Positions 6,127 through 53,739 of a DNA stretch of 64,000 bases are shown here, piece after piece. Source of the stretch: Lytechinus pictus (lineage: Eukaryota). Where the stretch lies: the NCBI RefSeq assembly GCF_037042905.1, contig NC_087245.1:1986001-2050000 (forward strand), written 5' to 3'. Numbering within the stretch: position 1 is the first letter of the stretch; each line of letters starts with the position of its first letter. A program made the translations under genes and the position numbers. Below the pieces are notes generated by a model. That model saw nothing but the letters and a program-made list of their open reading frames with translations, was not told the DNA's origin and ran no database searches.

Positions 6127-6177
<51 letters not shown>

Positions 6178-6229
6178 AGTAGTAGTAGTGGTGGTAGTAG
6201 TAGTAGAAGTAGTGGTGGTGGTGGTCGTG

Positions 6230-6316
<87 letters not shown>

Positions 6317-26041: not shown

Positions 26042-29000
26042 CTGATGAAAAGAATAGTATAGACCAATTTAACTCAAACAAATATGGAAACATAATAGGC
26101 AAATATGATGTTCAATATAATAATGAACTCTTTGATTGTGGGCATAAATGGATAAAAAAGACAATAGAAATCACACACAACATTGCCACTGTTTAAATTT
26201 TTTAGATTTATTTAACATTTTTTTTCATTCCTTATTATTCACTTGAAACATTTCGATTTTTTTCTACAAGCCAAAAGATGATGTTTCATGTGTCAAAATA
26301 CTTAACTAAAAAAGATTCATGACCACCCCCCCCCCCTTCGCCTCCAACCTGTAAATACCAGACCCTTTTAAGTTGTTGAATATTTCCATGTATAACTAAA
26401 TCGATGTAGCAAAACTTTGAGAGTTGAATTCTTACCGTGAGGTCATAAAGGTGTCACCAGTCTGTCCTAACCTACTTGTGGTATATGTGAATGTACTACT
26501 GGTATGAGCAAAACCTTTACTTGGGTACGTAGCACCTAAAATAAGGATTATGAGTGGAAGAATTATGACCATGTATATGAATTATGTAACTGAAGAAATC
26601 ACAGAGCATCAAATATAAACAGGTCGATTCTACATTCACAACATTCTACATATTCACAACTGAAAGACTGTACAAGAATATTAATTTTACACCAAATAAC
26701 CTTGTGAAAATTCAAACTAATCAATATATACAATAATTTATCTCTTGAATATGGTTAAATTTGCTTAATCATGCACCTGACTAAGATTGTTGAACTCTTA
26801 TGAAAAAAAAATTTTGTTTCTCTTGAATAGTATTGCAACGGTGTATACAAAAGGAACCTGCCCATTAAGGCTATGTGCATAAAAATGCTTAGCAACCCTT
26901 ATTTAGCCAATATCATTATTGATGGCTATTTACATAATAACAAAAAATACAATCAATGATATGTCTGAATGATACAGAAATAATTGCATTTAAATACAAC
27001 TAAGAAAAGTATCATACATAAATCTCACATGCATGCTATTGATTAGATGAAAATCCAAGTTGCATTTAGTTGCAAGTTTCCTTTCTGGCATATGCCCCTA
27101 ACTACCTAATTTCTGATGACAAATAAACAATATTCAAAGAATATCACAAATTATCTATCAGTTGAAAATACTTACTCTGGACACAACCATCATCCTCTAT
27201 CTCATCCAAGAAACTATCTCTTCTGGTATCAATCTCTCTGAAACCTTTGACGACTACTCCTGGTCTTGAGTCTAACATACTGGCTATGTGAGGGGTTGCA
27301 AGGCGCTGCCAATGGTGTAGGGCCATAGATCCTGATAAATGAATGCAGTAAAAGATAGGAGAAATGTTTTGAGAGGAAGATGAGGTGAGAGAAATGGAGA
27401 GGGGGAGAAGAGGAGAAAGAAAGGGTAAGAGAAAAGAGAGAGAGAGACATTACTAGATAATATAAATGTGCATGATCCACATTTTGTCATTCCTATTCAA
27501 TCCAAAGTAAATTTCACAGGCTCAAAAGAAAATGCCATTCAAATCTCATCCAAATTCACTTTAAAAGATTGTCTAAATCTTTATCACTGACAAAGTCCAC
27601 AGGTATATGGGGTAAATGTCATGTACAGAGCATTCTCATGATTTTATACAGCAGCAACAATTTGTGTGATTCTGTTAAATTTTACACACACTTAACCAGT
27701 TGCTTTCTGGAATCAGGTGTTCCCTATACAAAGCTTAAAGGAATGACAAAATAAATCAGGGATGCCACTAGGTGTCCTCCAAAAATACTGAAACTCATCG
27801 CGAGCAGGGACAGTGTCCAAGAACAGTGAATTGGGGCATTGGCGGCGGAAGCCAAAAAATTTAGGGGGGTCCACCTTAAATTTTGGGATGGACACAGGTA
27901 AAAATTTGGACAAGCAAGCAAGCAAAAAAATATGAAAAGAAAAAAAATAACAAAATAAAAAATAGAGGGAGGGGGGGTCCGTCCCCCCACCTCAAATTTA
28001 GGGGGGAGGACCAAGTGGCTCCCTGGGTTACGTATCAGCATGCAGCAGTAACGTTAGATCTAACATTCGGCGGAAACCCAATTTTTGGATCGTTTTTGTT
28101 ACATAAAATGTCACATTATAAAAAAATAATTACATCCAAATTCATGAGAAAATATATGAAATTCAGAAACATCGCACCTTAGACCGCAGTTACCGCTAAT
28201 TCCTTTCAAATGATGATCAAAACTTAGTCATCCTCGATCCTTTCGTTGGTCATCGTAAGTTGCCATCATGGATGACGTCATCATCTTTACGGTCGTATTT
28301 AATACCAGTCGCTATTATATCGCGATTCGTGCCGCTTGCTTTACGCTTGTCTATGTGCGTGCGTTCGGAACTTGCCGCTCGCATTGATTGGCCAGGATAT
28401 CGAGAATTCCAATCGGAAAGCCTTGATAAAAGCATAACTCAATGAACGTAGTGGGCGGTGCGCGCGTTTATAAATTATGTACTGTATAAAAGCAAATATC
28501 TCGGGGAAATATCTCTCACTCGGTCGATCGACATGCATCACAATCGAGAGAGAGGGGGAAAAGGGAGGACTTTCCGACTTTTTTTAATACACAGAAAACA
28601 GGAAAAGTCAGAAATACGGAAATAAGACGGACAACAGGGAAAAAGACGGAATTCCGTATAAAGACGGAAAAGTGGCATCCCTGATAAATAATCAATGAAT
28701 TGATTTCCTAAATATAAAGACATTAAGATGACATCAATGACCCACCTTCCATTGGTTTGACTATCTGTAATTTCTCAGGCATGTATGCCCTGAATGACTG
28801 GCCTCCTCCTGCTCCACCTATTGGTACAGTTGATCCAGACAATCCTGACAACATACTATCAGGACTAGGACAGGTAGGTGAATTCATGTGGAGCTCAGCA
28901 TAGTCTTTCTCTGCAGTCTCATTCTCTCGTCTTAGTTTGAGACGTCTGAGAGCGGTTGCAAGGTCGTTGGATCCTGGGATACAGGATACGGGAGGATGAA

Positions 29001-32000
29001 GTCCGGAGCTGGGCAGGAGAGAGGAGAGAGAAAAACAAATGATCATGAAATCGGTTATTTGTACTTTTTTTCCTATTATTTTCTGCACCATAAGCTTACC
29101 ATTGGTGATTACTGCACCATCAACTGTAAAGTCAGAGATACACTTTATGTCTACTCCCCTCACATACTTCTTGGACATACTGCAATAGTTTAAAGCTAAA
29201 ATGCCGTCATCAGAATTATACAAAGTTGTTACGGTGTTAATATCAGAGTATCTACTCTCCATGCTTTTTAAATTAAGGGAGAAATTTTTTTTCTACCTAC
29301 CCATGTGAGCTGTTGATACTTTCACTATCACCTCCATACATCTCACTCCCAACCAGAGATATTACAGAGCTAGATGGACAATAGTCTTTTCTACCTACCC
29401 ATGTGAGCTGTTGATACTCTCACTATCACCTTCATACATCTCACTCCCAACCAGAGATATTACATAGCTAGATGGACAATAGTCTTTTCTACCTACCCAT
29501 GTGAACTGTTGATACTTTCACTATCACCTCCATACATCTCACTCCCAACCAGAGATATTACAGAGCTAGATGGACAATAGTCTTTTCTACCTACCCATGT
29601 GAACTGTTGATACTCTCACTATCACCTTCATACATCTCACTCCCAACCAGAGATATTACATAGCTAGATGGACAATAGTCTTTTCTACCTACCCATGTGA
29701 ACTGTTGATACTTTCACTATCACCTCCATACATCTCACTCCCTACCAGAGATATTACAGAGCTAGATGGACAATAGTCTTTTCTACCTACCCATGTGAAC
29801 TGTTGATACTTTCACTATCACCTCCAGACATCTCACTCCCAACCAGAGATATTACAGAGCTAGATGGAGAATAGTCTTTTCTACCTAACCATGTGAAATG
29901 TTGATACTCTCACTATCACCGTCATACATCTCACTCCCTACCAGAGATATTACAGAGCAAGATGGACAATAGTCTTTTCTACTTACCCATGTGAACTGTT
30001 GATACTCTCACTATCACCTCCATACATCTCACTCCCAACCAGAGATATTACATAGCTAGATGGACAATAGTCTTTTCTACCTACCCATGTGAACTGTTGA
30101 TACTCTCACTATCACCTCCACACATCTCACTCCCAACCAGAGATATTACTGAGCTAGATGGACAATAGTCTTTTCTACCTACCCATGTGAACTGTTGATA
30201 CTCTCACTATCACCTCCATACATCTCACTCCCAACCAGAGATATTACATAGCTAGATGGACAATAGTCTTTTCTACCTACCCATGTGAACTGTTGATACT
30301 CTCACTATCACCTTCATACATCTCACTACCAACCAGAGATATTACATAGCTAGATGGACAATAGTCTTTTCTACCTACCCATGTGAGCTGTTGATACTCT
30401 CACTATCACCTTCATACATCTCACTACCAACCAGAAATATAACATAGCTAGATGGACAATAGTCTTTTCTACCTACCCATGTGAGCTGTTGATACTTTCA
30501 CTATCACCTCCATACATCTCACTCCCTACCAGAGATATTACAGAGCTAGATGGACAATAGTCTTTTCTACTTACCCATGTGAACTGTTGATACTTTCACT
30601 ATCACCTTCATACATCTCACTCCCTACCAGAGATATTACAGAGCTAGATGGACAATAGTCTTTTCTACCTACCCATATGAACTGTTGATACTTTCACTAT
30701 CACCTTCATACATCTCACTCCCAACCAGAGATATTACAGAGCTAGATGGACAATAGTCTTTTCTACCTACCCATATGAACTGTTGATACTTTCACTATCA
30801 CCTTCATACATCTCACTACCAACCAGAGATATTACAGAGATAGATGGACAATAGTCTTTTCTACCTACCCATATGAACTGTTGATACTTTCACTATCACC
30901 TTCATACATCTCACTCCCAACCAGAGATATTACAGAGCTAGATGGACAATAGTCTTTTCTACCTACCCATGTGAGCTGTTGATACTCTCACTATCACCTT
31001 CACACATCTCACTCCCAACCAGAGATATAACATAGCTAGATGGACAGTAGTCTTTTCTACATACCCATGTGAGCTGTTGATACTTTCACTATCACCTCCA
31101 TACATCTCACTCCCTACCAGAGATATTACAGAGCTAGATGGACAATAGTCTTTTCTACTTACCCATGTGAACTGTTGATACTCTCACTATCACCTCCATA
31201 CATCTCACTACCAACCAGAGATATTACAGAGCTAGATGGACAATAGTCTTTTCTACCTACCCATGTGAGCTGTTGATACTCTCACTATCACCTTCATACA
31301 TCTCACTACCAACCAGAGATATTACAGAGCTAGATGGACAATAGTCTTTTCTACCTACCCATGTGAACTGTTGATACTCTCACTATCACCTTCATACATC
31401 TCACTCCCAACCAGAGATATTACAGAGCTAGATGGACAATAGTCCTTTCTACTTACCCATGTGAACTGTTGATACTCTCACTATCACCTCCATACATCTC
31501 ACTCCCAACCAGAGATATTACATAGCTAGATGGAGAATAGTCTTTTCTACCTACCCATGTGAACTGTTGATACTTTCACTATCACCTCCATACATCTCAC
31601 TCCCAACCAGAGATATTACATAGCTAGATGGACAATAGTCTTTTCTACCTACCCATGTGAACTGTTGATACTCTCACTATCACCTTCACACATCTCACTC
31701 CCTACCAGAGATATTACAGAGCTAGATGGACAATAGTCTTTTCTACCTACCCATGTGAAATGTTGATACTCTCACTATCACCTTCATACATCTCACTCCC
31801 AACCAGAGATATTACAGAGCTAGATGGACAATAGTCTTTTCTACCTACCCATGTGAACTGTTGATACTTTCACTATCACCTTCATACATCTCACTCCCAA
31901 CCAGAGATATTACAGAGCTAGATGGACAATAGTCTTTTCTACTTACCCATGTGAACTGTTGATACTTTCACTATCACCTTCATACATCTCACTCCCTACC

Positions 32001-35000
32001 AGAGATATTACAGAGCTAGATGGACAATAGTCTTTTCTACCTACCCATATGAACTGTTGATACTTTCACTATCACCTTCATACATCTCACTCCCAACCAG
32101 AGATATTACAGAGCTAGATGGACAATAGTCTTTTCTACCTACCCATATGAACTGTTGATACTTTCACTATCACCTTCATACATCTCACTACCAACCAGAG
32201 ATATTACAGAGCTAGATGGACAATAGTCTTTTCTACCTACCCATATGAACTGTTGATACTTTCACTATCACCTTCATACATCTCACTCCCAACCAGAGAT
32301 ATTACAGAGCTAGATGGACAATAGTCTTTTCTACCTACCCATGTGAGCTGTTGATACTCTCACTATCACCTTCACACATCTCACTCCCAACCAGAGATAT
32401 AACATAGCTAGATGGACAGTAGTCTTTTCTACATACCCATGTGAGCTGTTGATACTTTCACTATCACCTCCATACATCTCACTCCCTACCAGAGATATTA
32501 CAGAGCTAGATGGACAATAGTCTTTTCTACTTACCCATGTGAACTGTTGATACTCTCACTATCACCTCCATACATCTCACTACCAACCAGAGATATTACA
32601 GAGCTAGATGGACAATAGTCTTTTCTACCTACCCATGTGAGCTGTTGATACTCTCACTATCACCTTCATACATCTCACTACCAACCAGAGATATTACAGA
32701 GCTAGATGGACAATAGTCTTTTCTACCTACCCATGTGAACTGTTGATACTCTCACTATCACCTTCATACATCTCACTCCCAACCAGAGATATTACAGAGC
32801 TAGATGGACAATCGTCCTTTCTACTTACCCATGTGAACTGTTGATACTCTCACTATCACCTCCATACATCTCACTCCCAACCAGAGATATTACATAGCTA
32901 GATGGAGAATAGTCTTTTCTACCTACCCATGTGAACTGTTGATACTTTCACTATCACCTCCATACATCTCACTCCCAACCAGAGATATTACATAGCTAGA
33001 TGGACAATAGTCTTTTCTACCTACCCATGTGAACTGTTGATACTCTCACTATCACCTTCACACATCTCACTCCCTACCAGAGATATTACAGAGCTAGATG
33101 GACAATAGTCTTTTCTACCTACCCATGTGAAATGTTGATACTCTCACTATCACCTTCATACATCTCACTCCCAACCAGAGATATTACAGAGCTAGATGGA
33201 CAATAGTCTTTTCTACCTACCCATGTGAACTGTTGATACTTTCACTATCACCTTCATACATCTCACTCCCAACCAGAGATATTACAGAGCTAGATGGACA
33301 ATAGTCTTTTCTACCTACCCATGTGAACTGTTGATACTCTCACTATCACCTCCATACATCTCACTCCCTACCAGAGATATTACATAGCTAGATGGACAAT
33401 AGTCTTTTCTACCTACCCATGTGAGCTGTTGATACTCTCACTGTCACCTTCACACATCTCACTCCCAACCAGAGATATTACTGAGCTAGATGGAGAGACT
33501 GGACGGCTATAGAAATCACTGCTGTAACCTGAGCCTGGACTATTATGACTTCTCTTATTCACAACCTTCACTGTCTTCATCACATTCTTGTTGTATTCCC
33601 TGAAGAAAAAATGATGTAATAATTTTCTTGAAGATTGTATCACTAATTTGCCTTTGATTTAGCTATAACATATGGCTTTTAAATGCATGTTAGGGGAGTA
33701 GCTCATGAAGCAACTTTTCACTGGCAACTGTTATAAGCTACTGGAATCCTTGCATCTGATTGGCTTAGAACAAATTTTTCACTGAAAATCACAGACAATA
33801 TGCTTGGTGAAACACTCCCCATGACATGAATTTATGATTGAGATAGATGAACTCTATATCATACGATTGATAATTATCACTAATAGGTCTTGGCTTAGAT
33901 TGCACACGTGTTGGGGGACTAGTCAATCCATCACCCCCCCCCCCCCCATTCTAAATCTGCATCGCCCTGAATGTGTATGTCTTGAACTTGAATTGAAATT
34001 TGAAAATACATGGAAATAGATTAATCAAATATATAAAAACATTGTAATTGGTTTAAGATCATTACTTGCATTATGCTGCACTCAACCCAGGTGAGTTAAA
34101 TGGGTACCCAGCAGTACCTCCTGTACCTCAGAATACAGTGGTGCTCAAAAGTTAGTGAACCCCACCAGAAAATGAACATATTCAAAGTGTTAAGTTCTGT
34201 CATGTTTTAGATAATTAATTGTGAAGTCAGGTGATAATATATTACATTCAATAAAGTTTGTTTCTCTGGGTTTGCCGAACATTGTAGTGTTGTTATCTAT
34301 ATTCCACACTCAGCATGAAGGAGAGTATTTTATGGTGGGTTCACCAACTTTTGAGCACAACTGTAGATGATATCTAAATAAACAAAATAAAATCTATATA
34401 AATGCCTATTCTTATTATAATTATCTGTTGTTTTCAGTGCCATTTGTCTTTCATACATCAGCATTTCCCATGTGTAATAAATGCATATCTAAATACCTTT
34501 TCCCTTTCTTTGAGAGGTGAGGGTCTTTCTCTAATCTTTGCTCTACACAATCCACGAGCTCAGCTGCTAAGGAATCCTGAAGGGTGAAACAAAATACGAA
34601 ATAAATTCTCTCATTTTTAACTTACAGACCAATTAACAACAAAGGTATAAAATATCACGGCTGTAAACCTAATTCACTCACAAACACAACATTAATCTAC
34701 AAAAGGTAGAACAAACATCAAGGACAAAATAGTTCAAAATAGTTCAGTTTACCAATATTATTAAATTTCATGAAAGAAATGTATTTTGCCATCATGTTAG
34801 TGATTATGTTTGTTCTCCTCTTCCTCAACAGCCCAACTAGTGGACCGAGTGGACAAATATATAGATAAATGCATTATTAAAGATTATTTCATTTGATTTT
34901 GTGGTCTATAATATTTCAACACTATTATTTATTGAAAGTGCTATTTGGTGAATAAATAACAAATTGAATATAAATACTTGATTTTCATAAGGATATTAAC

Positions 35001-38000: not shown

Positions 38001-41000
38001 CATGCTTGAGACTATCTGTTTGTTAATCTTTAGGAATGAAAGTCACGTAACATCAATACCAAAGGTGGGTGGAGCAAGATAATAATTATATTCTTTAGAC
38101 TTAGGAATAGATATGACCTATCATATGTAATTTTTACAGCCTTCTAGTTTTACCAGTTCTAACTAAGCACTATACCTTAATGATGAAATACAAACAATTT
38201 GCAGTAAGTAGAAAAGACGATCATCCATTTTTATGATGGACATTTAGGATTTTTTTCAAATTAAAAGATCAAGTATTTTTTTAATCACATTATTCAACAA
38301 GTAATCATTTTAATTTCTTATATAAATTTTCTGTGACAATATCAAAATCTTAGAAAGCTGAAATATATCTACCATTCCTGGATTTGCTCTACACTATTAA
38401 CTATCCCATCAAAGATTCATTTTCAACTTAATGAATTGAAAACAGTTGGGTATTTCATGCCAAAACTCGGTTATCTAGCTCTTTTCAATATTGGTTTAAC
38501 TTTTAAAAAGACCCATTACAATTAGATAACATGAAAATATTGACATTTCTAGCAACATCTTTGGCAAATATTATTAGGTTATCTTTCATACCTCTGCATG
38601 TAATTCATAAGCTTAGTATTCCATCTCAGATCACCTAATCAACTGAAATAGGTACATAGTCCATGAAAGTAAATATTGATTAAGACGACAGAATGTCTCT
38701 GTTTATGACATTAAAATTATTACCCACATGAATACCATTTTATTGATTAATTGAGATTCACATTTATACCTTTAATAGAAATGTGGTCCATAAAACATGT
38801 TAAGTGACACTCCCAATTCCTGTAACAACCGAGTCCTCTCTCGGGGACTGTTGATTACAATGCCTTAGCCATTATGGTGACCACAATGGTAATAGAGCTC
38901 ACCACACTATCAAGGTTTCCATTGTAGTTGCCATAATGACATAGTTAACATAGTTGTAAATTCTTTATGAAACAGTTCCCGGGCATCGTATTTCAAAACA
39001 CTCTGTAGTCTCATTCATTAACTTTCTCCCGATAACTGAACATCCTTTTATCTGTACATACACATGTTTGCTTTCAAACCTAGAATTCCCTAAACACATT
39101 ATTACATGGTTCCTCACACCTATCCTTTTTTTTTCTTTTCTTTTTTTACAAGAGGGAGATGAGTGCACATCTCCTTCCATGAAAAAAAGGTCAGCATCAT
39201 GTTATAAACTAGACAGAAGAAGGTGTTTCATGCAGATACAAAGAGCCAATACCATGATGGGACACATGGGATTGGACATAAATTATCATGAGATCTACGT
39301 ATCTCATGTCTTAATGTTTAATGCTTTGATTTTCCTGATTTTCTTTTCCTATAATACTATTCTGCTCCTGTTTGGGTGTACGCATTATGAACAAAGGCCC
39401 AGTCACACCAGGACTCCTGACGGTACCAGACCAACCACCATTGTATTATTTGCAATGACTTACCATAGGTGCCGTGGCCGAGTGGTCTAAAGGCCACCGC
39501 ACACCTTACGACCCGACTGGTCGGCGACTGGCTTGCGACTGATTGAGGGAAGATGTGACGTCACGGCTCTTGTCAGCTTGTGCGTCGCAGACCAGTCAGA
39601 GACAAGTCGCAAGGAAAATCGGAAGGATTTGACATGTCGAATCCTTATGACTGGATCGCAAGCTCAATCCAACTTCCAGCCAATCAGACAGTAGAGTTGC
39701 ACGACGCGTATATGATAAACAACGCGCATACGCAGTAGTAAGCGCACTTTCTCAGTTGCTATGCCAAAAAGCAAAAAGCGCATGCGTGAGTCGCAGATCG
39801 GATCGCAAGGTGTGCGGTGTTGAGGCTTATGACTACCTTGCGATTCATTTCCCCTCACCCAGTCGCAAGCCAGTCGCCGACCAGTCGGGTCGTAAGGTGT
39901 GCGGTGGCCTTAAGGCGCCTGACTATACATGGTCTGTATAGGCAAAAGAGTTTCTTTTTCATTTGTACTCTCTGACCTCCAGGGGAGTGTTTCATTAATA
40001 TTTCTTTCCCGACAAGATTTCAGATCTGACAGTTTTCCTTGATTTTGGTTGGCTGAAAAGCACAGTTCCTATGGTAACTGTCAGATAAAACATCTGTCAA
40101 GTCTTTTCCTGAAACGCACCCCACATGAATTCAAGTTTAGTTTGAACTTGTTTTTCTCTGCCTTTTTGGTTCTGTTGCCACTAATGTAGTCTCTGTGATG
40201 ATTGCAGTCTTTCAGAGGGAGCAACATTTATATATATTTTTACCATACACTTTCGTCTTCACGATCCCCGGCCGCGATCCCCGGCCGCGGCACCTATGCC
40301 CGTGAGCAAGGTATTTAATCGACAATGCTCTTTTATCCTGCATTCAAATAAATGAAAATGCTATAAGCATTATTGGTAATTAGGTATGCACTTGTTTAAA
40401 AAAAAAAAAAAATCTGCTCCTGTTTGGGTGTATGCCTTATGAACAAAGTCACAGTCACACCAGGACTCCAGACGGTACCAGACCAACCACCATTGTATTA
40501 TTTGCAATGACTCACCATTGTGTGATTTGGAATCTGTTTCACTGGTGTGTCTAAAGCATGACAATGCTTGAGCAAAATTACAATGAGGTGTAACTTACGG
40601 CAGGGAAGACTGGAAGTGGGTTTAAGTAGGTGCCAAAGCCGATGCCGCCGTGGGACATAGAACTGCGATTAGATTTCTTTGCTGTCTCCTGTGCCTCTTG
40701 GAACATGGTGTAAACTTCTTCATACTTCTCTTTTGTCTCAATCAACTAGAAGATTACAAATACAATGAAAATGAAGTAATGAAATTACTGTTGGAATAAT
40801 CTTAAAATGACAAATAGGATAAAAAGGTGGAAAATAGCACATAAAGATAAATAACACAAATTTGCGGTGAACAGCTTCAGTATGTCTAGAGTTTACAGAT
40901 TGGGGTGAAAGTTGTAATGAGCTTTCATATAAACTTATTCTTATATTTTAGAAAGTCAGATCCAAGTATAAAGAACAAAGTAACTGACATTAGATCAAAT

Positions 41001-44000
41001 ACTTGTTCTTCTTCCCAGTAGCGTAGGAGGAATGTGGAGCTGAATGACACAATAAAAAAGGACCTACAACTTTATATCCTTTCTTTAATCAACACCTCAT
41101 AATACCAACAGGCACAGGCAATGCTTCTTCTGTAGCACTAGATTAGCAACCAAAATTCTGCCCTTTTATGAGTAAACTCACTGTGAAGGGGTGATTCCAG
41201 AAAGTATGTTCGTCTAACCCCTATAAGAAATATTGTCCTCTTTTGTGGTTTATACAAAAAGCCATACTGCTATCAATCAAGGACTGACCAGTTTACGAAG
41301 TGAGATAAAAATCAAAATATATGGGCATGGACTTACAAAATGGTTGATTATTTTATGGAATCACCTATTACTAGTATGCACAACCTGCTGGACTATAACA
41401 ATGAAATAAATATCATATTTAAAAAATGACATGGGCTTCCTTACATCTTTGACTAGGTCTTGCTGTGCTTCTTTCGAAGCTGTAAGATGCCTGCTCATCT
41501 CCTCATTCTCAACTGATAACTAGAAGAAAGTGAAAGAAAAAGATAAATATTGAACATTCATAAATTCATCAAGCAGTTGGATTAATAGAGATAACAGGAA
41601 AAAACTGACAAAAACGAGACAAACATAAATACATTACCCCTCCCCCAATTTTTAGATCCTCTTTTAATTACTACTGTAGCTTTTTCTGAGGTGGATAAAA
41701 AATACTTGTGCATTTTCATTAAAAAAAAAACTGCAATAGACATTTCAAGCAATTGATAATCAACAATTCAATTATCTAATTGCAATCAGCTAATACAATT
41801 TTTTTACAATGAATTATATCAGAATTTTGCCTCCTATGAAAAATGCAATGTCTCCTTTATAAAAATCAAAATTATAGGATTCTCTATAAAGAGTATAATC
41901 CTTTTGATAACTCTTTTAACATTTATCAGTCATTTGGACAGCAATTTTGATGAAGTATATTGACTGACCTTTTTGACCTTATGTTGTAGATCTACAAGTT
42001 GAGCTAAGAGGGAGGTAATCTCTTCTTGTTGTCTCATATTCTCTTCAAATTTCTTACTCAGCTCATCTGTAAGAATCTCACAAGTCCCACGGGAATCCCC
42101 TGAAAGAAACCATCAACACTCATTTATCTTCATTTTATAAAAGGAGAATATTATGCTAGAAAACAGTTTACAAGTATTATACAAATCAAAGAATCAGATT
42201 GATGAAAATTTGATTAATAGAAAAGATTATACGAGTATTTGAATGTTGATATTTCTAAGTGCTATGGAAATCCTCCCATTCATTTTTTTTCTACACTTGT
42301 TATGAGTTTTAAAAATGTAGGAAATGTGAGAAAATATAGTTGATAAAACTGAAAGAAAAACTTTGGTACATATTTGAGGTGGCTCAGAAAGATTGGAGTT
42401 TAAAATTCATTTTCTTTCACGCTATTGCATATCCCATAATTGCTTTACACATATATTTCTCTACTATTACTATACCCTTCAAAATATATCTTAATTGATG
42501 CCACAAGTGGCAATGAAAATGACAGTGGTAGTATTTGCTTCTTACATGTCAAGTTACTCAATAACATTATCACATTCTCACTATTTTTTTAGATACACTT
42601 TTTATAAGTTTACAATGTAGTGCTTGAAAGATTTCTTTTTTTCCTTCTCTTTATACTCCAATCAAATTTTTGTAGATGTATTACTCTTGGTGGTAATGAC
42701 ATTAACCTTGGTCGGCAAAAAAAATATATAATTGCACTATTTACAGCTTGGTTGAAGGCAACAAAACTATCACCCCTTGGTTTGAATGTTTGACATTTGT
42801 CCTGAGAATCAAGTGGATAAACCACTAAACCAGAATATCTCTATTTTTCCAAATTAAAAAAACCCTGACTAGGCAGATTTTCATGAACAGCCAACTTTCC
42901 AACTGCACTAACATTTGCTTGAAGCCTGGGATACCAACAAGCAGGTATTGATATTAACAAGTGAGTCAACATGAGCCATTTCACTGATTAGGAAAAAAAA
43001 AACTTTGCGAGTGAAATGAGAGCACCATGATGGATCACAAACTATCAAATATTCACATAGTTACTTCCATCAATTAAGTGCTCCTCTCGGACACAGGAGG
43101 GCAATCTTCTTCCTGACTTTAACACTTCATCCATAAGCAAGGATATCATTTGATTTTCATGATTTTATCAATTTACCAAACTATTGAGGTGTTGTAAAAT
43201 AAAAACAGTGAATCATTTTTTTTTAATTGTGACATGGTAAAAAAATTCACATCTCGTGTAACAGAAGATTTCTATTCAAAAAAGGGAAACCAAGTTACAT
43301 TGATCCATATCTCTTACTCCTCATGCTAAAATCTCATTTCTATCCTTGATTTTTGCATATAAGGTAAAAGTAAATATGGACAAAAACCCCTCAAAATTCA
43401 AAATTATGTCATTAAGCCTTTGGCTGCGAATTGAATTCTATTAAAATGAATGCCATTTATCTATCTATCTTTACCCTTGAATGGTGATAGTACTTACTTA
43501 GCTGTCTAAAGCAATCTCTAACAAGTTCTTCTTCTTTCTCTTCAATGTTTGAGGTTGTGGTACGGAGCTCAGCAGTCTCTATCCTAAGATGAAGATTCTC
43601 CTCTTCAAGATTCTTAATCTTCTTCTGAAGGTTGTCAATGTTGATGTATTTAGATTGGATACTCCCCTTCCCCTTTTCATTCCTGTAGCAATAAACAATA
43701 TAGTAAATAAATTAGTACACAGAATTATTCTTGATAGTGCTACATGTATACTTTCTTTTGAACATAGATGTCTTTAAACAATACTTTAGAGACACCAACA
43801 AATTAATAAGTAAAATCAAAAGCAACCTGCAGTTTTATGATTCACAATTAAATACTTGGTGACAAATGATAAGGGCTATAAATAGACACATAATATTGAA
43901 CAGCAATAATTTAAAAAAGGCCATTTAATAAATAAGATTTTTTTTAAACAAATTCATTGAAAACTATTTCTTTTTCTTTGCCATGACCAGAATCTGATAT

Positions 44001-46734
44001 GATTTGAAATCTCTTCTGAAACTTTAAAGATATCAAGCAGAAAAAATTATCAACTGCTCTGTATAGGCAAAAGAGTTTCTTTTTCATCTGTACTCTCTGA
44101 CCTCCAGGGGAGCGTTTCATTAATATTTCTTTCCCGACAAGATTTCAGATCTGACAGTTTTCCTTGATTTTGGTTTCCTAAAAAGCACAGTTCCTATGGT
44201 AACTGTCAGATAAAACATCTGTCAAGTCTTTTCCTGAAACGCACCCCACATGAATTCAAGTTTAGTTTGAACTTGTTTTCTCTGCCTTTTTGGTTCTGTT
44301 GCCACTAACGTAGTTAGTAACATTCAATATTTCTTAGTACCATACACTTTCATCTTCAGAGTCACTAAGTTTTTCAGAGGGAGCAACATTCAATATTTCT
44401 TACCATACACCATACATCTCAGAGTCACTATATTTTTTTAGAGAGAGCAATATTCAATATTTCTTACCATATACTTTCATCTTCAGAGTCACTTTGATCC
44501 ACATCATTGGTATAGATATTGAGTAGTTCATCTTTCAATTTCAAGTCATGTCGGAATTGGGTATTCTAAGGATCAAAAAATAAAAACAAGTGAATGCATG
44601 AATTCACTAAAACCCCAAATCAAAGCTTATCTTGCATGTGCACAATTTATATTTTAAAATAATGTGACTTTTTTTGCCTTTTTTGGGCTTCATGCACATT
44701 AACTTTTTTAAATGTACACTCCATCCATCTTAGTGTACAGTATTCATTGCATTTGATTAAATTATTGGAACTTGAAAAAATAAGAATTGTGATATACACT
44801 GTATACTAGAATAATATTCTTTTGGCATATACTACAGACATCAAATGTGTTTCTTTATTTTTTTCTTCTTTATTTTGAGATAGAGAACATTACTGATAAT
44901 TTTTAGCTAAGATTCAATCAAATAAATACGCAAAAATTATCACTGTAAAGATTTCTTAGAAAAATTTATGAATGAAAAAGAAAATAATTCTCTCTCTGTA
45001 ATCTCAAATTTATAGATATCAATAAAAGAAATATGACAATAAAAATGCAAGGAGCGGTACTTCTTAATCTCTTTTTGAGTTCTTTAAAGAATAATAGTCA
45101 CATATCACCAACTAATGTGATCGATGTTCAAGGAGGTAAAAGTTCATGAATTATCGCTCGATCACATGCATGCTTCATTTATTCACGTGTCAAACCAGAG
45201 TGATCACATGATTAACATGACAAATATTCCATACGTGTTGATAATCGCCCAACTATCATCAGCCAATCACAATATTCTACAACTTAAGTGCAAATGTTGG
45301 CCCTCCCCATTTGCTCAAGAACATGACTTTTAGGCAGGACAGGGCAGCCAAAACTGACTTTACTTGGTAAATATTTTTGGGAGGTCAATATTATTTTTTG
45401 AAATATTTACACTGTAAACATTTTTATTAGATATTCTTTGTTGAAAATGCATTCAAGAAATGTTTTACCACTCAATAAAGATGCAGAATTGAAGATGAAA
45501 GTATTGTATTCACAGTGCTTTGTACTAAGGAATATGAAAACGGTCAAATCAAATTTGAGAAGCAAGAGAAACTTTTTTAAAAATGGAGGTTCTTACTTGA
45601 TCAGCGATGATCGTGAGTTGCTCTTCTGTTAATTCAATACGACCCTCAAGTTGCTTGTTCTGTTGAAGGAGAGATTGGCCAATCTTCGCTGCAAGCTCCA
45701 AATCCTTCTCTTTCTGTACTCAAAACATAACATAAAGAAAAATTATAATTGAAATACAAATGCTTTCACACCTCCCCCATAAAAAATACCCATAATCTAA
45801 GAGATATCATTCCAGGATTCAAAATACAATATACTTGTCCTTCAAAATTATTATGCATTCACACCACCCTGCACCACATCAGAAAAATAAAACTTTTGAA
45901 ACTTGCATGTAGCATGGCATCTGTATTTCTACAGAGAAAGTGAAAATGATCTCTTGTTGATGGAATGGTACCTGCTGATAACATGCTTTCATACTGCAAT
46001 GATCCCTTCAAAAGTCCAGAAATTTTACAAAGTGCCTGCTAGTTGATTGCATTTTCTCTCAAGTAAATATCAAGTATTGTGAGGTGGTGTGAAAACATCA
46101 AGTTGACATGTCAAATGCCTATTCCCTCACTCTCTGGCGACTTCATGAAATTAGCAGTTGGAAATCTAGTTAGCCAAGGCAGGTGCCCAATAAAAGTCAC
46201 AATACAGACAGTGAACAAACCTGCCTCAAGTGATAGTGAAGGGAACATGGCAGATGTTCTATTTGGTGAAAGCTACAGAAAATTTACAATGCAAGTTTAA
46301 CTTTCTAACTCACCAATAAGGTTTATCTTAAGCTGAACCTGCAAAATACAGCAGTTTGAATTGTAAACATTCATAATCACCATTGTAAGAATTCATTGGT
46401 TCAGATTTATTTTCTTTTCATTTGTTTGTTGTTGCTGCTATAAGCAATTCAAATGAATAAAATCAAAAGTGTCAAGATTACATTTTAACAGAAACTCTAC
46501 AGAGATGTTTGAGGATGCATCTGATTCTGAACACACAATTCATTAGACTGCTGTAATTTTTATTTTTGTGTAAGATATTCACATAATTATCATTAGGTAC
46601 CTATTAAGGGAATTTCTATGAAAGAATGATACTAAATGAGAGAATGAAATAACAAACCTCTTCCAGTAGTTTAGTAACTGCATCAATGTCATTGTAGGTC
46701 TTGGTCATCTGCACCACACGATCACCACATAATG
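24847..46734 (-). CDS. TRAK1: Trafficking kinesin-binding protein (TRAK1/2, Milton) homolog, 13 common coding exons
   Basis: HAP1_N motifs [41 protein letters not shown] and RQQEEITSLLAQLVDLQ; Milton motifs [56 protein letters not shown]; all junctions in phase. Confidence 0.93.
26436..26535 (-). CDS. TRAK1: TRAK-like exon ([21 protein letters not shown]...)
   Basis: ttttag/gtaag; resembles the TRAK STFTFTT motif. Confidence 0.88.
27176..27331 (-). CDS. TRAK1: TRAK-like exon ([13 protein letters not shown]...)
   Basis: atcag/gtaagt. Confidence 0.92.
27757..28683. mobile_element. Non-autonomous DNA transposon, hAT-like ends
   Basis: TIR CAGGGATGCCACT / AGTGGCATCCCTG; ATAAAT on both sides; ACGGA subterminal repeats; GC-richer interior. 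Confidence 0.75.
28746..29008 (-). CDS. TRAK1: TRAK-like exon ([19 protein letters not shown]..KPME)
   Basis: Long pyrimidine tract + cag; donor gtgggt. Confidence 0.92.
29293..33495 (-). repeat. 98-bp tandem array (42 full copies + parent exon end) built from a TRAK exon 3' end plus its splice donor
   Basis: Unit starts at 29293, 29391 ... 33409; (33409-29293)/98 = 42; unit matches the last ~78 nt of exon 33417-33599 plus gtaggtagaaaa. Confidence 0.97.
33417..33599 (-). CDS. TRAK1: TRAK-like exon (EYNKNVMKTVK...DSESINSSHG)
   Basis: ttcttcag/gtaggt; 183 nt, phase 2/2. Confidence 0.88.
33693..33820. mobile_element. Short MITE (GGGGAG..TCA / TGAAACACTCCCC ends)
   Basis: Imperfect TIRs; same end type as 39982-40122 and 44107-44247. 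Confidence 0.6.
34136..34363. mobile_element. Tc1/mariner-type MITE
   Basis: TA|CAGTGGTGCTCAAAAGTTAGTGAACCC ... GGGTTCACCAACTTTTGAGCACAACTG|TA. Confidence 0.85.
34497..34576 (-). CDS. TRAK1: TRAK-like exon (DSLAAELVDCVEQRLEK...)
   Basis: cttcag/gtattt; phase 0/2 bridges the neighbouring exons. Confidence 0.88.
35811..36037. mobile_element. Foldback-type element of inverted tandem GC-rich motifs
   Basis: GCCTTCCCGCA(C/T)AAAGGCC copies on the left, reverse-complement copies on the right. Confidence 0.7.
36956..37110 (+). mobile_element. tRNA-derived SINE
   Basis: A-box-like TTCAGTGGTAGAGC, B-box GGTTCGATCC, body and (TTA/TTG)n tail. Confidence 0.75.
37405..37575. mobile_element. Palindromic MITE
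   Basis: ~65-bp arms GTTTCATAGAGCTGTT..ACGACTGGTGATCCT / AGGATCACCAGTCGT..AACAGCTTTATGAAAC. Confidence 0.8.
39465..40412 (+). mobile_element. tRNA-derived SINE with poly(A) tail, interrupted by two insertions
   Basis: Head ATAGGTGCCGTGGCCGAGTGGTCTAAGGCG pairs with CGGCCGCGGCACCTAT; partial B-box CGATCC; A15 tail. Confidence 0.75.
39491..39910. mobile_element. PIF/Harbinger-type MITE inserted in the SINE head
   Basis: ~50-bp perfect TIR AGGCCACCGCACACCTTACGACCCG...; TAA duplicated on both sides. Confidence 0.9.
40599..40745 (-). CDS. TRAK1: TRAK-like exon (LIETKEKYEEV...PVFPA)
   Basis: tctag/gtaagt, 147 nt. Confidence 0.9.
41445..41519 (-). CDS. TRAK1: TRAK-like exon (LSVENEEMSRHL...)
   Basis: tctag/gtaag, 75 nt, coiled coil. 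Confidence 0.9.
41969..42099 (-). CDS. TRAK1: TRAK-like exon (..RQQEEITSLLAQLVDLQHKVKK)
   Basis: tttcag/gtcagt, HAP1_N motif. Confidence 0.92.
43498..43682 (-). CDS. TRAK1: TRAK-like exon (..LQKKIKNLEEENLHLR..DCFRQL)
   Basis: tacag/gtaagt. Confidence 0.92.
44107..44247. mobile_element. Short MITE (second copy at 39982-40122 inside a duplicated segment)
   Basis: TIR GGGGAGCGTTTCA / TGAAACGCACCCC. Confidence 0.7.
44319..44493 (-). repeat. ~63-bp tandem triplication of exon end + donor
   Basis: AGTGACTCTGA..GTATG|gtaagaaatattgaat present three times. Confidence 0.85.
44468..44565 (-). CDS. TRAK1: TRAK-like exon (NTQFRHDLKLKDELLNIYT..SDSEDESIW)
   Basis: cttag/gtaag. Confidence 0.9.
45597..45713 (-). 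CDS. TRAK1: TRAK-like exon ([16 protein letters not shown]...)
   Basis: tacag/gtaag. Confidence 0.93.
46658..46734 (-). CDS. TRAK1: TRAK-like exon ([25 protein letters not shown])
   Basis: tacag/gtttgt; phase-1 acceptor. Confidence 0.93.
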
Positions 46735-48088
46735 CTGTAATGAGAAAAAGTAAACCAAGAAATAATCATCAAATGTAATCTCAAAAGTGGTTTATGATAA
46801 AAGAATAATCTGAAATTTTAAAAGCTCATTTTTGATATTGGGGAATCCCAGGGAATAGAAAAGTGAAAGCATTAGAATGACATGTCTGATCCACTTGAAA
46901 AGAGGGAAAGGTGCAAACAAATTACAATTGATCCCAGAGGAGGATCCAGAATTTCAAAAGAGAGGGGCTCAAAGAGCAAATTTAAAATACTAGTAGTCAT
47001 GGCACAGATAACAATATTCTTAGATTAAGCTTTATTGATATGTTCAACGGGTGATTCTCAAAAAATAATTTTAGATCCTTATGATCACAGTTAGTCTGCA
47101 TCCTTCAGCAGAAAAAAAAATGCTAAGATGATTTCAATTGATCCATCAATTTCAAAATTGATATTAATAACTGTACTGTCACTATAGATGTTGTCTCTAT
47201 AAAGCATATTTCACCTGCCCCCCCCCCCCAAAAAAAAAGAAAAAAAAGAAGGAAACTACATATTAAAAGGCTATCATCCTCATAGGCTAACTATCATTCG
47301 TAATGAAGGACTCAATGTTATGTCCATAAACATCAATTGTGGTCCATTATAATAAAATAGGAGTTTTTCTGTTTATCAAATTACTAGTTGTTACGATTTT
47401 ATTCTTGGGGTGAGGAATTGATAGTCTCCTCATCCCTTTCATGATCTTTTCCAAATACACATTGGTATGATATTAAATGTTCATGGACTTTACTTTAAAT
47501 GTTTCCTGTTTTTCTGGAAGAGGTATGTCATCAACCTCCCAAAGAGGAAAGAAGGGAAATTCCTATTTCCATGTAGAAAACCCAGACCAGACAATGGTTG
47601 AAACCTGGTAAACAATTCTATTAGTGATAGACGTCACAGATATAATACATAGATCATTACCCATACATGAAATTACACGGTCCTTAAACACATTAGATGG
47701 CTTTATTTTTCCTAAAATTGTTTCTTCTGGCATTAGATTGGAAAAGATTGGTTTGTTTTTAAAAACTCACTGAATGTTTGTTATGTAATAAATCATTAGA
47801 GAATTGAGGATTCTCAAGAACATGCTTTGTGTGTATCATTTTATATTGACGATCCATTATTAATTAATGTTAGTCATTCTTTTGAACTGCTTGAACAGCT
47901 ACCATGCAAAAGTGTGTTTCTCTCTGTTCTGTACTGTAATATACTATACAAGGTTTTCCTGAAAGGGCCTTTCATCTGCATATATTCACATATTATTCTC
48001 CTGTAAAAAGTGTCATGTTGAGTGCAATTAATAAAACAACTGTTTCCGCTACATTATCACTTCCTCTTCCTACATGTAGTAGTGAACT

Positions 48089-48632
48089 CCCGGGGGGGGG
48101 GGGGCAATCAGTATATAATGCATAGTGGGTATGTGCCGCGGAGGGGACCCCCATTTTTACACTAAAATTTTCGTTCCAAGGCATAGCATTTTTGTCTTAT
48201 TGAGAAAAAGAACAAAGAAAGCCGCTCCAAGGCATAGCATTTCCTTCTTATCGAGAAAAATGAAGAAAGAAATCCGCTCCAAAGCTTCGCATATTTTTCG
48301 TTACGCCGTTCCGGTCGCATTGATGTGCTACAATTTTGGTGAAAAGCGGCCGTAGAGCGCTTTTCGACCATCGCCTAAAGCGCGAGCGCACCCGGCGGAG
48401 GCCGCGCTAGCTGCGTCATGCACGATTGCCCGTTCCATAGGGATGCATACGCACTCACAGAGATACGGAGATCCGTTCCGAGGACCCCCGTTTTCACAAA
48501 CATTTGTAGTTCCGAAGCCCGTTCCGAGGACCCTCCTTTTTACAATAAGCCCGCTCCAAGGCCCCCGTTTTTTGCCTCGCCCGCGGCACACCCCTACCAC
48601 TTTTTTGGTCGAGTGCCCCCCCCCCCCCCGGG
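48089..48632. mobile_element. Non-autonomous DNA transposon with CCCGGG(G)n TIRs and 8-bp TSD
   Basis: AGTGAACT|CCCGGGGG...CCCCCGGG|AGTGAACT; internal CCGCTCCAAGG/CCGTTCCGAGG repeats. Confidence 0.9.
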
Positions 48633-51600: not shown

Positions 51601-52528
51601 AAAATATCGCAATGTATCCCAAACCCAACCTCAACCCCCCCCCCTTTATTTAGCTTCGTATGCAACTTTATGGTTCAATAATTCATACACACAATCTTTT
51701 CCCTTAATTCTGTTTTAGGAAATGTATTTCTGAGGTCACTATATCCAAAAGGAGGAAATCCCAACCTATGTGTATTTGATCTTTCATGGTATGCTTGCTT
51801 TGTATTATGTTTCACTATCAGTCCAAGGTCAGTTTCATCTATTGTTTTGTAACAAAAGGATTTTTAGCTTTCATTCTTGGATTATCCATAGCTTTTATGA
51901 TATTTATCTATGAAACACTGTGCAATTAGATGGTAGATTGTTTCATAGGATATCTTATTCATAGTTGAAGAAATACTTCAAGGAAATTTGAAATTAAGTT
52001 TTGGTGGGTCTTGATTAACTATATTTTTGTTATTTGACTTTCTTTTGTTTATATTTTTTAGTATTGTATTGTATGATGGTGTTCAGGACATGAAAAGTAC
52101 ATATCCAGGGATAACAAGTTTTGGAATATGTTAATGTCAACATACATGTATAAATCTGTATTCTACCATTAAAAACCATATTGGTGTACAGTGTAAGCTG
52201 ATTCTAGAGGCAATGTCTCAATAGGTCATATTATTCTAGCATTTTGAGTCATTTTTGTGGAGTATTTTACACCAGGGAAATGCTAGTCACAATACCCTGT
52301 TTAAATTAAAGTCTTTGAGGTTTGGAGCTATATAGCTCTTGTTTTATATTGTATTCATTGAATTTTTTACTACCTTGTTGGTGTAGTTTCTGAAAATCTA
52401 TTTAATGCTGAAATGGACGTATGCTAAACTTGATCAGTTTTTCAAATAGTGTCAACGTTCAATAATAATAATATCTACTGTACCTTCCAAATTGTTTAAA
52501 GTTCTAAATAAATGTTCTAGGTACAAAA

Positions 52529-52736
52529 GGTGACACGACATTTGCTCCTGCGACAATTGCTCCAGGCTTAATTTCATCCTAGATGTAGGGTGAAGGTTGC
52601 AATAGGGTTTTACGTTAGGTTTAGGGTTGAGTTTAGGATAGGGTATAGTGTTAAACCCAGGGTTGGAGTTGGTCATTCAATTAGTGTGTGGAATTTAGAG
52701 TGGTGCAATTGTTGCCAGAGCAAATGTCATGGAACC
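52529..52736. mobile_element. MITE with telomere-like (TTAGGG-related) core
   Basis: TIR GGTGACACGACATTTGCTC / GAGCAAATGTCATGGAACC. Confidence 0.7.
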
Positions 52737-53645: not shown

Positions 53646-53739
53646 AATAGAGCTCTCCTATCTCTAGACAATCATAAAGATAGGAGTGAATGAAATCCCA
53701 TTCATCTTTCATACTGAGATCGGTTACGGAGTATTCCAT
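53646..53739 (-). CDS. TRAK1: Candidate alternative first coding exon of TRAK-like gene (MEYSVTDLSMKDEWDF...ELY)
   Basis: gtgATGG start, 94 nt open, T|gtaagt phase-1 donor compatible with acceptor 46734. Confidence 0.55.

What the first reader, a model, noticed from the sequence alone, without database searches (positions are those of the whole stretch)
29293..33495. Satellite made of in-frame mini-exons: 42 tandem copies of a TRAK exon end with donor and latent acceptor
Seen: on -, each 98-bp unit reads gtaggtagaaaagactattgtccatctag|C TCT GTA ATA TCT CTG GTT GGG AGT GAG ATG TAT GAA GGT GAT AGT GAA AGT ATC AAC AGT TCA CAT GG|gt. That is a 29-nt GT..AG spacer plus a 69-nt segment in phase 2/2, the same phase as the parent exon (33417-33599) and the downstream acceptor (29008). 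Each segment would add a 23-aa Ser/acidic peptide, about SVISLVGSEMYEGDSESINSSHG. Established: a 29-nt intron is too short for a typical metazoan spliceosome, and tandem duplication across splice sites is a known route to new exons and introns. Inference: joining a donor to the acceptor of the next-but-one or a later unit (intron of 127 nt or more) could include variable numbers and combinations of peptides inside the Milton region. Using a distal donor without re-splicing hits TAG immediately (GGG TAG), giving truncation or NMD. The array could be a combinatorial cassette system, a splicing rheostat or decoy, or a neutral VNTR.
Basis: partly seen in the sequence, partly recalled or inferred. 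Interest (0 to 1): 0.88.

Follow-up and report, generated by a model that had tools for sequence, protein, structure and literature searches.

The report
Silent splice-site repeats in urchin intron
A 4.2-kb stretch inside a sea-urchin mitochondrial-transport gene repeats the end of one exon and its splice signal 43 times, but the cell appears to use only the first copy, as in a few known human genes.

Summary
Window 29289-33494 (minus strand) holds 42.9 copies of a 98-bp unit with no indels. The first unit is the real 3' end of a coding exon of the Lytechinus pictus TRAK1-like (Milton) gene. Each unit carries 78 nt of exon, the donor, 12 nt of intron and an 8-nt filler. The in-frame 69-nt segments and 29-nt GT..AG spacers are as described.

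No sign of use was found. All 12 urchin TRAK proteins compared have the peptide once, followed directly by the 29008 exon. In three raw RNA runs and one contig set, coverage stops at the first donor. It is zero on the spacer and on the start of unit 2. The latent acceptor has the poorest pyrimidine tract of the gene.

The best reading is a junction-spanning intronic minisatellite with silent pseudo-donors. This kind is known from human F7, LMNB2, PDGF, CBS and 6-16 (PMC1557585).

The 33417-to-29008 junction was not seen directly. RNA depth was low: 12 reads reached the donor.

The parts
29289..33494 (-). 98-bp minisatellite. It consists of 43 copies of a 90-nt original segment (78 nt of exon end plus 12 nt of intron start) separated by 42 copies of the 8-nt filler GACTATTG. 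That makes 4206 nt.
   Evidence: TRF. Unit table. The arithmetic 42*98+90 = 4206 and the filler's absence elsewhere in the window.
33417..33599 (-). Parent coding exon of the TRAK1-like gene (EYNKNVMK...SESINSSHG). Its last 78 nt (33494-33417) are the first copy of the repeat.
   Evidence: Exon threading with P0001. 100% identity to the L. pictus TRAK1-like model. RNA depth of 4-17 per run.
33411..33419 (-). Authentic, most upstream donor TGG|GTAGGT. It is the only donor for which use is supported.
   Evidence: junction that reproduces the protein. (coverage ends at 33417 and none runs into 33416-33386).
29009..33416 (-). 4408-nt phase-2 intron that contains the whole array downstream of the first donor, plus 280 nt of unique sequence (29288-29009).
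28746..29008 (-). Next coding exon (SGLHPPVSC...KPMEG, Milton domain PF12448). Its acceptor has the most pyrimidine-rich tract of the 13 acceptors of the gene in the window (0.95, run of 19).
   Evidence: (Pfam, E 6.1e-14).
30528..33314 (-). Recent duplication of a 14-unit (1372-nt) block inside the array. 33314-31900 and 31942-30528 differ at 2 of 1415 positions.
   Evidence: Lag analysis.
34496..34576 (-). Upstream exon. Its junction to the parent exon served as the positive control for the RNA lay.
   Evidence: The joint 33598->34496 was seen in 5, 11 and 5 reads and in one X1 contig. Boundaries.

Best explanation
This is a locus-specific intronic minisatellite of the Lytechinus pictus TRAK1-like (Milton) gene, and its first monomer spans an exon-intron boundary. 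A 90-nt segment (the last 78 nt of the exon and the first 12 nt of the intron) was duplicated head to tail with an 8-nt filler at the joint. The resulting 98-nt unit then expanded to 43 copies by unequal exchange or slippage, most recently by duplication of a 14-unit block. The donor is therefore reiterated 42 times inside the intron. The splicing machinery pairs the upstream acceptor with the first donor it meets, by exon definition or 5'-to-3' choice of the most upstream site. The whole array is then removed as part of a 4408-nt intron that ends at the strong acceptor at 29008. The 69-nt 'mini-exons' are pseudo-exons, and their AG is a by-product of the codons TCT AGC. Shown here: the anatomy, the origin arithmetic, the single-copy peptide in all gene models, and the lack of RNA over spacer and unit 2. 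Inferred: the rule that selects the first donor, neutrality, and a side effect in which unequal exchange between the first unit and later units moves array variants into the last 23 codons of the real exon.
For: Gene identity rests on HAP1_N hits in 4 upstream exon translations and a Milton hit in the downstream exon, and on 100% identity to XP_063961132.1. The origin fits exactly: 4206 nt = 42*98+90, the first copy lacks the filler upstream, the last copy lacks it downstream, and the filler occurs nowhere else in the window. The block duplication has 2 mismatches in 1415 nt at lag 1372, against a mean of 4.1-4.9 differences per unit pair at other lags.

Twelve of 12 urchin TRAK proteins have the peptide once, followed directly by SGLHPP or the equivalent. 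These are 4 L. pictus models, 5 L. variegatus models, S. purpuratus, Diadema and one 979-aa Logan-derived protein.

In the RNA lay the control joint 33598->34496 was seen in 5, 11 and 5 reads and one contig. Parent-exon depth was 4.5-17. The bin 33386-33431 had depth 0.33, 3.28 and 0.33, which equals 1, 10 and 1 reads covering only its 15 exonic positions. The bin 33340-33385 was 0 in 4 of 4 runs, although reads from any of 42 further units could map there at the 90% threshold. Depth over the repeated part of the exon (2.35, 14.4, 4.2) was not above that of the unique part (5.13, 17, 11.8). Two X1 contigs run 4 letters past 33417 without matching the spacer.

The latent acceptor has a pyrimidine fraction of 0.45, against 0.55-0.95 for 13 of 13 real acceptors, and a T count of 6 against 10-15. 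The shortest real intron of the gene in the window is 394 nt.

Precedent comes from human F7 IVS7, LMNB2 and PDGF, where only the authentic most upstream donor is used (PMC1557585: abstract, Introduction and Discussion read).
Against: The junction 33417->29008 was not seen in reads, because the laid stretch ended at 33340. The loose-end table was filled by dispersed repeats of the upstream intron (581 rows not shown), so the letters that follow 33417 in the reads are unknown. Only 12 reads reach the donor, so with 0 of 12 running on, the 95% upper bound for unspliced or read-through molecules at that site is about 22%. About 6% of each raw run was read, and the tissues or stages are unknown. 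Transcripts with a premature stop may be degraded and so be under-represented.

The donors are well kept (42 of 43 have GT), and 7 units have GTAAGT, a better match to consensus than the authentic GTAGGT. Variant types among units lean towards synonymous: 7 synonymous against 8 non-synonymous, where 21-25% synonymous is expected (P 0.022-0.059). This could mean some constraint on the coding reading. Copy-number polymorphism and neutrality were not tested.
Confidence: 0.8

Rival explanations
1. Combinatorial cassette. Donors join acceptors of later units, with introns of 127 nt or more, so that variable numbers of 23-aa Ser/acidic modules are inserted into the Milton region.
For: All 42 segments are open in phase and 40 of 42 spacers end in AG. 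Forty-two of 43 donors have GT. There is a weak excess of synonymous variant types. Human tandem arrays that supply alternative splice sites have been described (Zhuo et al. 2007). For that paper only the title phrase was seen, cited in 15 papers. The paper itself was not read.
Against: Twelve of 12 urchin proteins have one copy, and none of the 15 candidates of 106-2000 aa screened in the search repeats the peptide. Depth at the start of unit 2 is zero, no 29-nt skip is listed, and there is no excess depth over 33417-33485. The acceptor context is the weakest of the gene. Common array variants (positions 33450 and 33437, carried by 16 and 18 of 42 units) are not among the listed other letters of the exon reads (310 rows were hidden).
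Confidence: 0.04
2. Functional decoy or rheostat. The 42 pseudo-donors bind U1 snRNP, and the purine-rich exon-derived segments bind SR proteins. This changes the speed or efficiency of splicing of the intron, or diverts a fraction of transcripts to a TAG-terminated, degraded form, so that copy number tunes TRAK output.
For: Donor sequences are kept in 42 of 43 copies and improved to GTAAGT in 7. Read-through gives an immediate stop. In the F7 system the pseudo-sites are functional when the upstream sites are inactivated (PMC1557585 abstract).
Against: No read of the laid runs lies on the spacer or on unit 2. Young arrays keep their sequence without selection, and variable sites are as dense in the spacer (8 of 29) as in the exon-like part (14 of 69), Fisher P 0.44. 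No expression comparison between alleles is available.
Confidence: 0.1
3. Assembly artefact. The array, or its length and the 14-unit block duplication, was produced by the assembler and not by the genome.
For: The near-identical 1.4-kb internal duplication is the kind of structure assemblers can create. No raw DNA read was laid here.
Against: The two blocks differ at 2 positions, and units differ from each other in an ordered way with no indels. The array ends exactly as a 90+8 model predicts. The exon alleles seen in RNA carry letters that are the majority letters of array units, which fits a real array exchanging with the exon. The array is 4.2 kb, which long reads can span (inference).
Confidence: 0.03

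Closest known systems
Human F7 intron 7 minisatellite (37-bp VNTR, 5-9 copies; Borensztajn et al. 2006, PMC1557585)
   Same: The first monomer spans the exon-intron boundary, so the authentic donor is followed by identical pseudo-donors. Only the most upstream site is used physiologically. Pseudo-sites with better U1 complementarity still do not compete (abstract, Introduction and Discussion read).
   Different: The urchin unit is 98 bp and carries 78 nt of exon, against 4 nt in F7. It has 43 copies, against 5-9. It also carries an in-phase AG, so complete pseudo-exons are formed. The selection rule has not been tested in an urchin.
Human LMNB2 (100-bp monomer, 10-15 copies) and PDGF intron 4 (81-bp monomer, 16-18 copies) junction minisatellites
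   Same: The unit length is similar, the position at an exon-intron boundary is the same, and only the authentic donor is used. This is as summarised in the Introduction of PMC1557585. The original papers were not read.
   Different: The copy number here is about three times higher. The organism is an echinoderm. Whether those human units form in-phase pseudo-exons was not checked.
Human 6-16 (IFI6) intron 2 and CBS intron 13 minisatellites
   Same: Donors are reiterated by a boundary-spanning minisatellite (25 pseudo-sites in 6-16).
   Different: [quoted passage not shown] Here use of the second donor would read into TAG, and no read supports it.
Introns and alternative splice sites born from tandem arrays (Zhuo et al. 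2007), and intron gain by tandem duplication across AGGT (Rogers model)
   Same: The tandem duplication creates new GT and AG pairs inside a gene.
   Different: In those cases the new sites are used. Here no use is seen, and the GT..AG distance inside one unit (29 nt) is too short. The papers were not read: the title phrase was seen cited in 15 papers, and the rest is recalled.
   Different: That note concerns several short arrays in a kinase gene. This is one long array in TRAK. Its claims were not re-tested here.

Membership tests
Exon-intron-boundary minisatellite with reiterated 5' pseudo-splice sites (F7 IVS7 type) | Head-to-tail array of units of tens of bp lying in an intron | tested here: met
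   Period 98, 42.9 copies, 0% indels. The array lies within the 4408-nt intron 33416..29009.
Exon-intron-boundary minisatellite with reiterated 5' pseudo-splice sites (F7 IVS7 type) | The first monomer contains the authentic exon-intron junction, so the donor sequence is repeated downstream | tested here: met
   The array starts at 33494 inside the exon and the donor is at 33417|33416. GT is present in 42 of 43 copies.
Exon-intron-boundary minisatellite with reiterated 5' pseudo-splice sites (F7 IVS7 type) | Only the most upstream donor is used and the pseudo-sites are silent | tested here: met
   Twelve of 12 protein models have a single copy. RNA depth stops at 33417 and is 0 at 33340-33385 in 4 of 4 runs. 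Limits: 12 reads at the donor, the junction to 29008 was not seen directly, and the tissues are unknown.
Exon-intron-boundary minisatellite with reiterated 5' pseudo-splice sites (F7 IVS7 type) | Copy number varies between individuals (VNTR) | not testable with these tools
Indirect evidence only: the recent 14-unit block duplication.
Alternatively spliced cassette exons from a tandem array | Each unit has a usable 3' and 5' splice site | tested here: inconclusive
   AG is present in 40 of 42 spacers and GT in 42 of 43 copies. However, the acceptor's pyrimidine fraction is 0.45, below all 13 real acceptors.
Alternatively spliced cassette exons from a tandem array | Transcripts contain variable numbers of units joined exon to exon | tested here: not met
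   No such protein among the 15 candidates of 106-2000 aa screened, and no candidate at 33-105 aa. No read lies on the start of unit 2 and no excess depth was seen. Sensitivity is limited.
Recursive splice site (ratchet point) | A strong pyrimidine tract and AG directly abutting a GT donor | tested here: not met
   The only AG|GT in the unit is inside GGGTAG|GTAGAA and is preceded by purine-rich exon sequence (unit consensus).
TRAK/Milton kinesin adaptor gene | HAP1_N coiled-coil region followed by a Milton domain | tested here: met
   PF04849 in 4 exon translations (E 2e-9 to 4e-16) and PF12448 in the exon after the array (E 6.1e-14). 100% identity to L. pictus TRAK1-like isoform X1.

The most novel reading that the evidence does not exclude
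In a tissue or stage not sampled here (for example neurons or gametes), the first donor or a later donor joins acceptors of later units. The Milton region of TRAK would then gain a variable number of 23-aa Ser/acidic modules. The array would also serve as a reservoir from which unequal exchange writes new alleles into the last 23 codons of the exon.
Probability: 0.04. Interest if true: 0.75.

Novelty: new member of a known kind. Interest (0 to 1): 0.3.

Why it matters
It is a natural experiment on 5' splice-site choice outside mammals. Forty-two further donors, some closer to consensus than the authentic one, sit downstream of the real site, each with an in-phase AG, in an essential mitochondrial-transport gene. 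If only the first donor is used, as the data suggest, the 'most upstream site wins' rule worked out on human F7 would extend to an echinoderm, at six to eight times the copy number.

L. pictus can be bred and edited in the laboratory (recalled), so the rule could be tested in vivo.

The array may also raise diversity in the exon's last 23 codons by exchange. Four variable sites were listed in 69 nt, against 2 in 195 nt of neighbouring exon sequence (P 0.042).

Tried and rejected
- **Sequencing-run search.** No RNA holder listed. The raw RNA runs X19-X21 came in only by species label. X1-X4 hold 0.25-0.26 of the sampled words, near the exon share of the stretch (about 0.20). This would fit exons without the array, but it is too rough to count.
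- **Read lay.** The stretch laid was 33340-34700, not the array itself. Both sides of the 33417->29008 junction were therefore never in one reference. High-copy dispersed repeats at 33708-34400 filled the loose-end and joint tables (581 and 16 rows hidden).
- **Protein searches.** The search at 33-105 aa with the parent-exon peptide found no candidate. The search at 47-153 aa with the next exon's peptide gave 9 hits. The 4 best were read and look like exon translations with unrelated flanks from other species, and none crosses the junction.
- **Earlier notes of this scan.** Nothing near this place.
- **Papers.** 'Lytechinus + minisatellite + intron' gave 2 papers, and by title and abstract neither concerns this locus. 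'sea urchin/TRAK/Milton/alternative splicing' listed 10 of 74 papers, none on an urchin TRAK array by title. Within these two searches the array is therefore not in print.
- **Recursive splicing.** Rejected, because there is no pyrimidine-rich AG|GT in the unit.
- **A transcript from the + strand.** Rejected, because depth is zero on 33340-33385 in both read directions.
- **Selection on the peptide.** The 7:8 synonymous to non-synonymous ratio is only marginal (P 0.022-0.059). One of the 7 synonymous types occurs only in the real exon copy.
Full report
**The observation**

Tandem Repeats Finder reports a single array at 29289..33494, with period 98, 42.9 copies, 95% matches and no indels. Read on the minus strand and cut in register, it gives 42 full units and a shorter last copy. 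The consensus unit is a 69-nt segment (CTCTGTAATA...CACATGG) followed by the 29-nt spacer GTAGGTAGAAAAGACTATTGTCCATCTAG. A search of the 812-Mb assembly with three units found one candidate region, the array itself (the tool states that its counts are lower bounds). The unit is therefore not a dispersed satellite.

**The gene**

Upstream exon translations on the minus strand hit HAP1_N (PF04849) in 4 of 9 pieces tested. The exon just downstream of the array hits Milton (PF12448, E 6.1e-14). The parent-exon peptide is 100% identical to 'trafficking kinesin-binding protein 1-like isoform X1' of Lytechinus pictus (XP_063961132.1).

Threading that 966-aa protein onto the window, with GT..AG ends required, gives 14 coding blocks and 13 introns of 394 to 6911 nt. 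The parent exon is 33599-33417. The intron with the array is 33416..29009 (4408 nt, phase 2). The next exon is 29008-28746.

**How the array arose**

The array begins at 33494, 78 nt before the end of the exon. The first copy is not preceded by GACTATTG, and the last copy stops after GTAGGTAGAAAA and runs into AAAATTTC. The length of 4206 nt equals 42*98+90 exactly. The 8-mer GACTATTG is found only inside the array.

The simplest account is as follows (inference). A 90-nt segment (78 nt of exon and 12 nt of intron) was duplicated once with an 8-nt filler at the joint. The 98-nt period then expanded. The 'acceptor' AG of each spacer is the TCT AGC (Ser-Ser) of the exon, so it is a by-product of coding sequence.

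**How the array evolves**

Unit pairs differ by 4.1-4.9 positions on average at every lag except lag 14, where the mean is 2.18 and 12 of 28 pairs are identical. Over 1415 nt (33314-31900 against 31942-30528) there are only 2 mismatches, so a 14-unit block was duplicated recently.

Twenty-two of 98 positions vary: 14 of 69 in the exon-like part and 8 of 29 in the spacer (Fisher P 0.44). Among the variant types in the exon-like part, 7 are synonymous and 8 are not, where 21-25% synonymous is expected (P 0.022-0.059). This lean is marginal. One of the 7 synonymous types is found only in the real exon copy.

**The splice signals**

GT follows the segment in 41 of 42 full units and in the last copy. 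Seven units have GTAAGT and 2 have GTATGT. One has lost the G. Forty of 42 spacers end in AG.

The donors match the consensus at 6-7 of 9 positions, like the 13 real donors of the gene (6-8). The acceptor context is poor. Its pyrimidine fraction is 0.45 against 0.55-0.95 for the 13 real acceptors, and it has 6 T against 10-15. The real acceptor at 29008 is the richest of all (0.95, with a run of 19).

A 29-nt GT..AG distance is below what metazoan spliceosomes remove (recalled, not tested). The shortest intron of this gene in the window is 394 nt. Reading on from any donor gives GGG TAG.

**Transcript evidence**

- *Protein models.* All 12 urchin TRAK proteins aligned carry the peptide SSSV(I/V)SLVGS..EM(Y/C)EGDSES once, followed directly by the next exon's residues. 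These are 4 L. pictus models, 5 L. variegatus models, S. purpuratus, Diadema and a 979-aa protein from a 3343-nt Logan contig of another urchin. The isoforms differ only at the N-terminus. None of the 15 candidates of 106-2000 aa screened in the protein search repeats the peptide, and no candidate turned up at 33-105 aa.
- *RNA reads.* I laid three raw, rRNA-depleted RNA runs of the same species label (X19-X21, about 6% of each read) and one contig set (X1) on window 33340-34700. This stretch holds the upstream exon, the parent exon, the first donor, spacer 1 and the first 48 nt of unit 2.
- *Positive control.* The joint 33598->34496 was seen in 5, 11 and 5 reads and in one X1 contig. All exon reads have the first mate on +, as expected for a stranded library of a minus-strand gene (recalled convention).
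- *Coverage at the donor.* Parent-exon depth is 4.5-17. The bin 33386-33431 has depth 0.33, 3.28 and 0.33, which is 1, 10 and 1 reads covering just its 15 exonic positions. The bin 33340-33385 is 0 in all 4 runs. The unique intron bins next to the exons are 0 as well.
- *What the zero means.* Reads from any of the other 42 units could map to unit 1 or unit 2 at the 90% threshold. The zero therefore argues against stable array-containing RNA at more than a very small share.
- *No excess depth.* Depth over the repeated part of the exon (2.35, 14.4, 4.2) does not exceed that of the unique part (5.13, 17, 11.8). It should if mini-exons were included.
- *X1 contigs.* Two 117-nt contigs, one per allele, run 4 letters beyond 33417 that do not match the spacer.

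**Exon alleles**

The reads show linked differences from the reference:

| Position | Change | X19 | X20 | X21 | X1 depth |
|---|---|---|---|---|---|
| 33499 | Val->Ile, outside the array | 1 of 4 | 6 of 16 | 8 of 8 | 14.3 of 20.4 |
| 33482 | — | 1 of 4 | 6 of 15 | 6 of 6 | 14.3 of 20.4 |
| 33453 | Cys->Tyr | 1 of 2 | 6 of 15 | 3 of 3 | 14.3 of 20.4 |
| 33443 | — | 2 of 2 | 12 of 12 | 3 of 3 | 14.3 of 20.4 |
| 33425 | — | not seen (0 of 1) | 5 of 10 | not seen (0 of 1) | 0 of 20.4 |

Linkage with 33499, which lies outside the repeat, shows that these are alleles of the real exon and not reads from other units. The alternative allele equals the older L. pictus model XP_054750016.1 (SRPI...SEMY).

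All four alternative letters inside the repeat are the majority letters of the array. Listed variable sites are denser in the repeated 69 nt (4) than in 195 nt of adjoining exon sequence (2), Fisher P 0.042 (310 rows of that table were hidden). Unequal exchange between the first unit and later units would produce exactly this pattern. This is inference.

**What is known**

Borensztajn et al. 2006 (PMC1557585; abstract, Introduction and Discussion read) describe the human F7 intron 7 minisatellite. Its first 37-bp monomer spans the exon 7 boundary. The 4-8 identical pseudo-donors are functional but silent, because the most upstream site is chosen. Pseudo-sites with higher U1 complementarity still do not compete.

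Their Introduction lists further cases:
- LMNB2: 100-bp monomer, 10-15 copies, only the authentic donor used.
- PDGF intron 4: 81 bp, 16-18 copies.
- 6-16: 25 pseudo-sites, the two most proximal used.
- CBS intron 13: 15-20 copies, two pseudo-sites used.

The urchin array meets the defining features of this kind. It differs in several ways. The copy number is higher. The exon share of the unit is larger (78 nt). An in-phase AG makes complete pseudo-exons. The host is an echinoderm.

I found the F7 paper before I saw that note, and I did not re-test its locus. Two paper searches found nothing on this array.

**Verdict and limits**

The most likely reading (about 0.8) is a tolerated, locus-specific junction-spanning minisatellite. 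Its reiterated donors and pseudo-exons are not used, and the array is removed within a 4408-nt intron. The rivals are a decoy or rheostat role (0.1), the cassette idea (0.04) and an assembly artefact (0.03).

Several points are still open:
- The 33417->29008 junction was not seen in reads.
- Only 12 reads reach the donor, so the 95% upper bound for unspliced or read-through molecules at that site is 22%.
- The tissues of the runs are unknown.
- Molecules ending in a premature stop may be degraded.
- No DNA reads or sister-species genome were available to test copy-number variation or to date the array.

Noticed in passing
window 33417-33499 (minus strand exon): The RNA reads carry at least two or three alleles of the exon end. 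They differ at 33499, 33482, 33453, 33443 and 33425, and include Val/Ile and Cys/Tyr changes. The reference letter C at 33443 (minus strand) was seen in none of 17 reads of X19-X21, and appeared only in one X1 contig.
   Followed up: partly
window 33708-33799 and 34030-34400: Parts of the intron upstream of the parent exon attract hundreds to thousands of RNA reads on both strands, with many loose ends and inverted joints. This looks like a high-copy dispersed, probably transposon-derived, repeat family that is transcribed somewhere in the genome.
   Followed up: no
window 1-17658 (+ strand): The ORF translations look like a large LDL-receptor-related protein gene, with Cys-rich class A repeats, YWTD-type repeats, EGF-like modules and a Pro-rich cytoplasmic tail. 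It converges tail to tail with TRAK. No family search was run.
   Followed up: no
window 5588-6393: Trinucleotide microsatellite (TAG)n of about 267 copies, apparently inside an intron of the plus-strand gene.
   Followed up: no
window 39855-40068 and 43944-44193: Two copies of one dispersed element in TRAK introns share the ORF peptides NLVGKEILMK..SPGGQRVQMKKKLFCLYR and ELCF..NQNQGKLSDLKSCRERNINETLPWRSEST.
   Followed up: no
window 29009-29033: The acceptor that ends the array-bearing intron has the longest pyrimidine run (19) and the highest pyrimidine fraction (0.95) of the 13 acceptors of the gene in the window. This could be chance, or it could help this acceptor win over 40 latent AGs.
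   Followed up: partly
window 46735-53739 and beyond: The L. pictus and L. variegatus isoforms X1-X4 differ only in short alternative first coding exons (alignment columns 1-130). The X1 first exon lies at 53739-53647.
   Followed up: no
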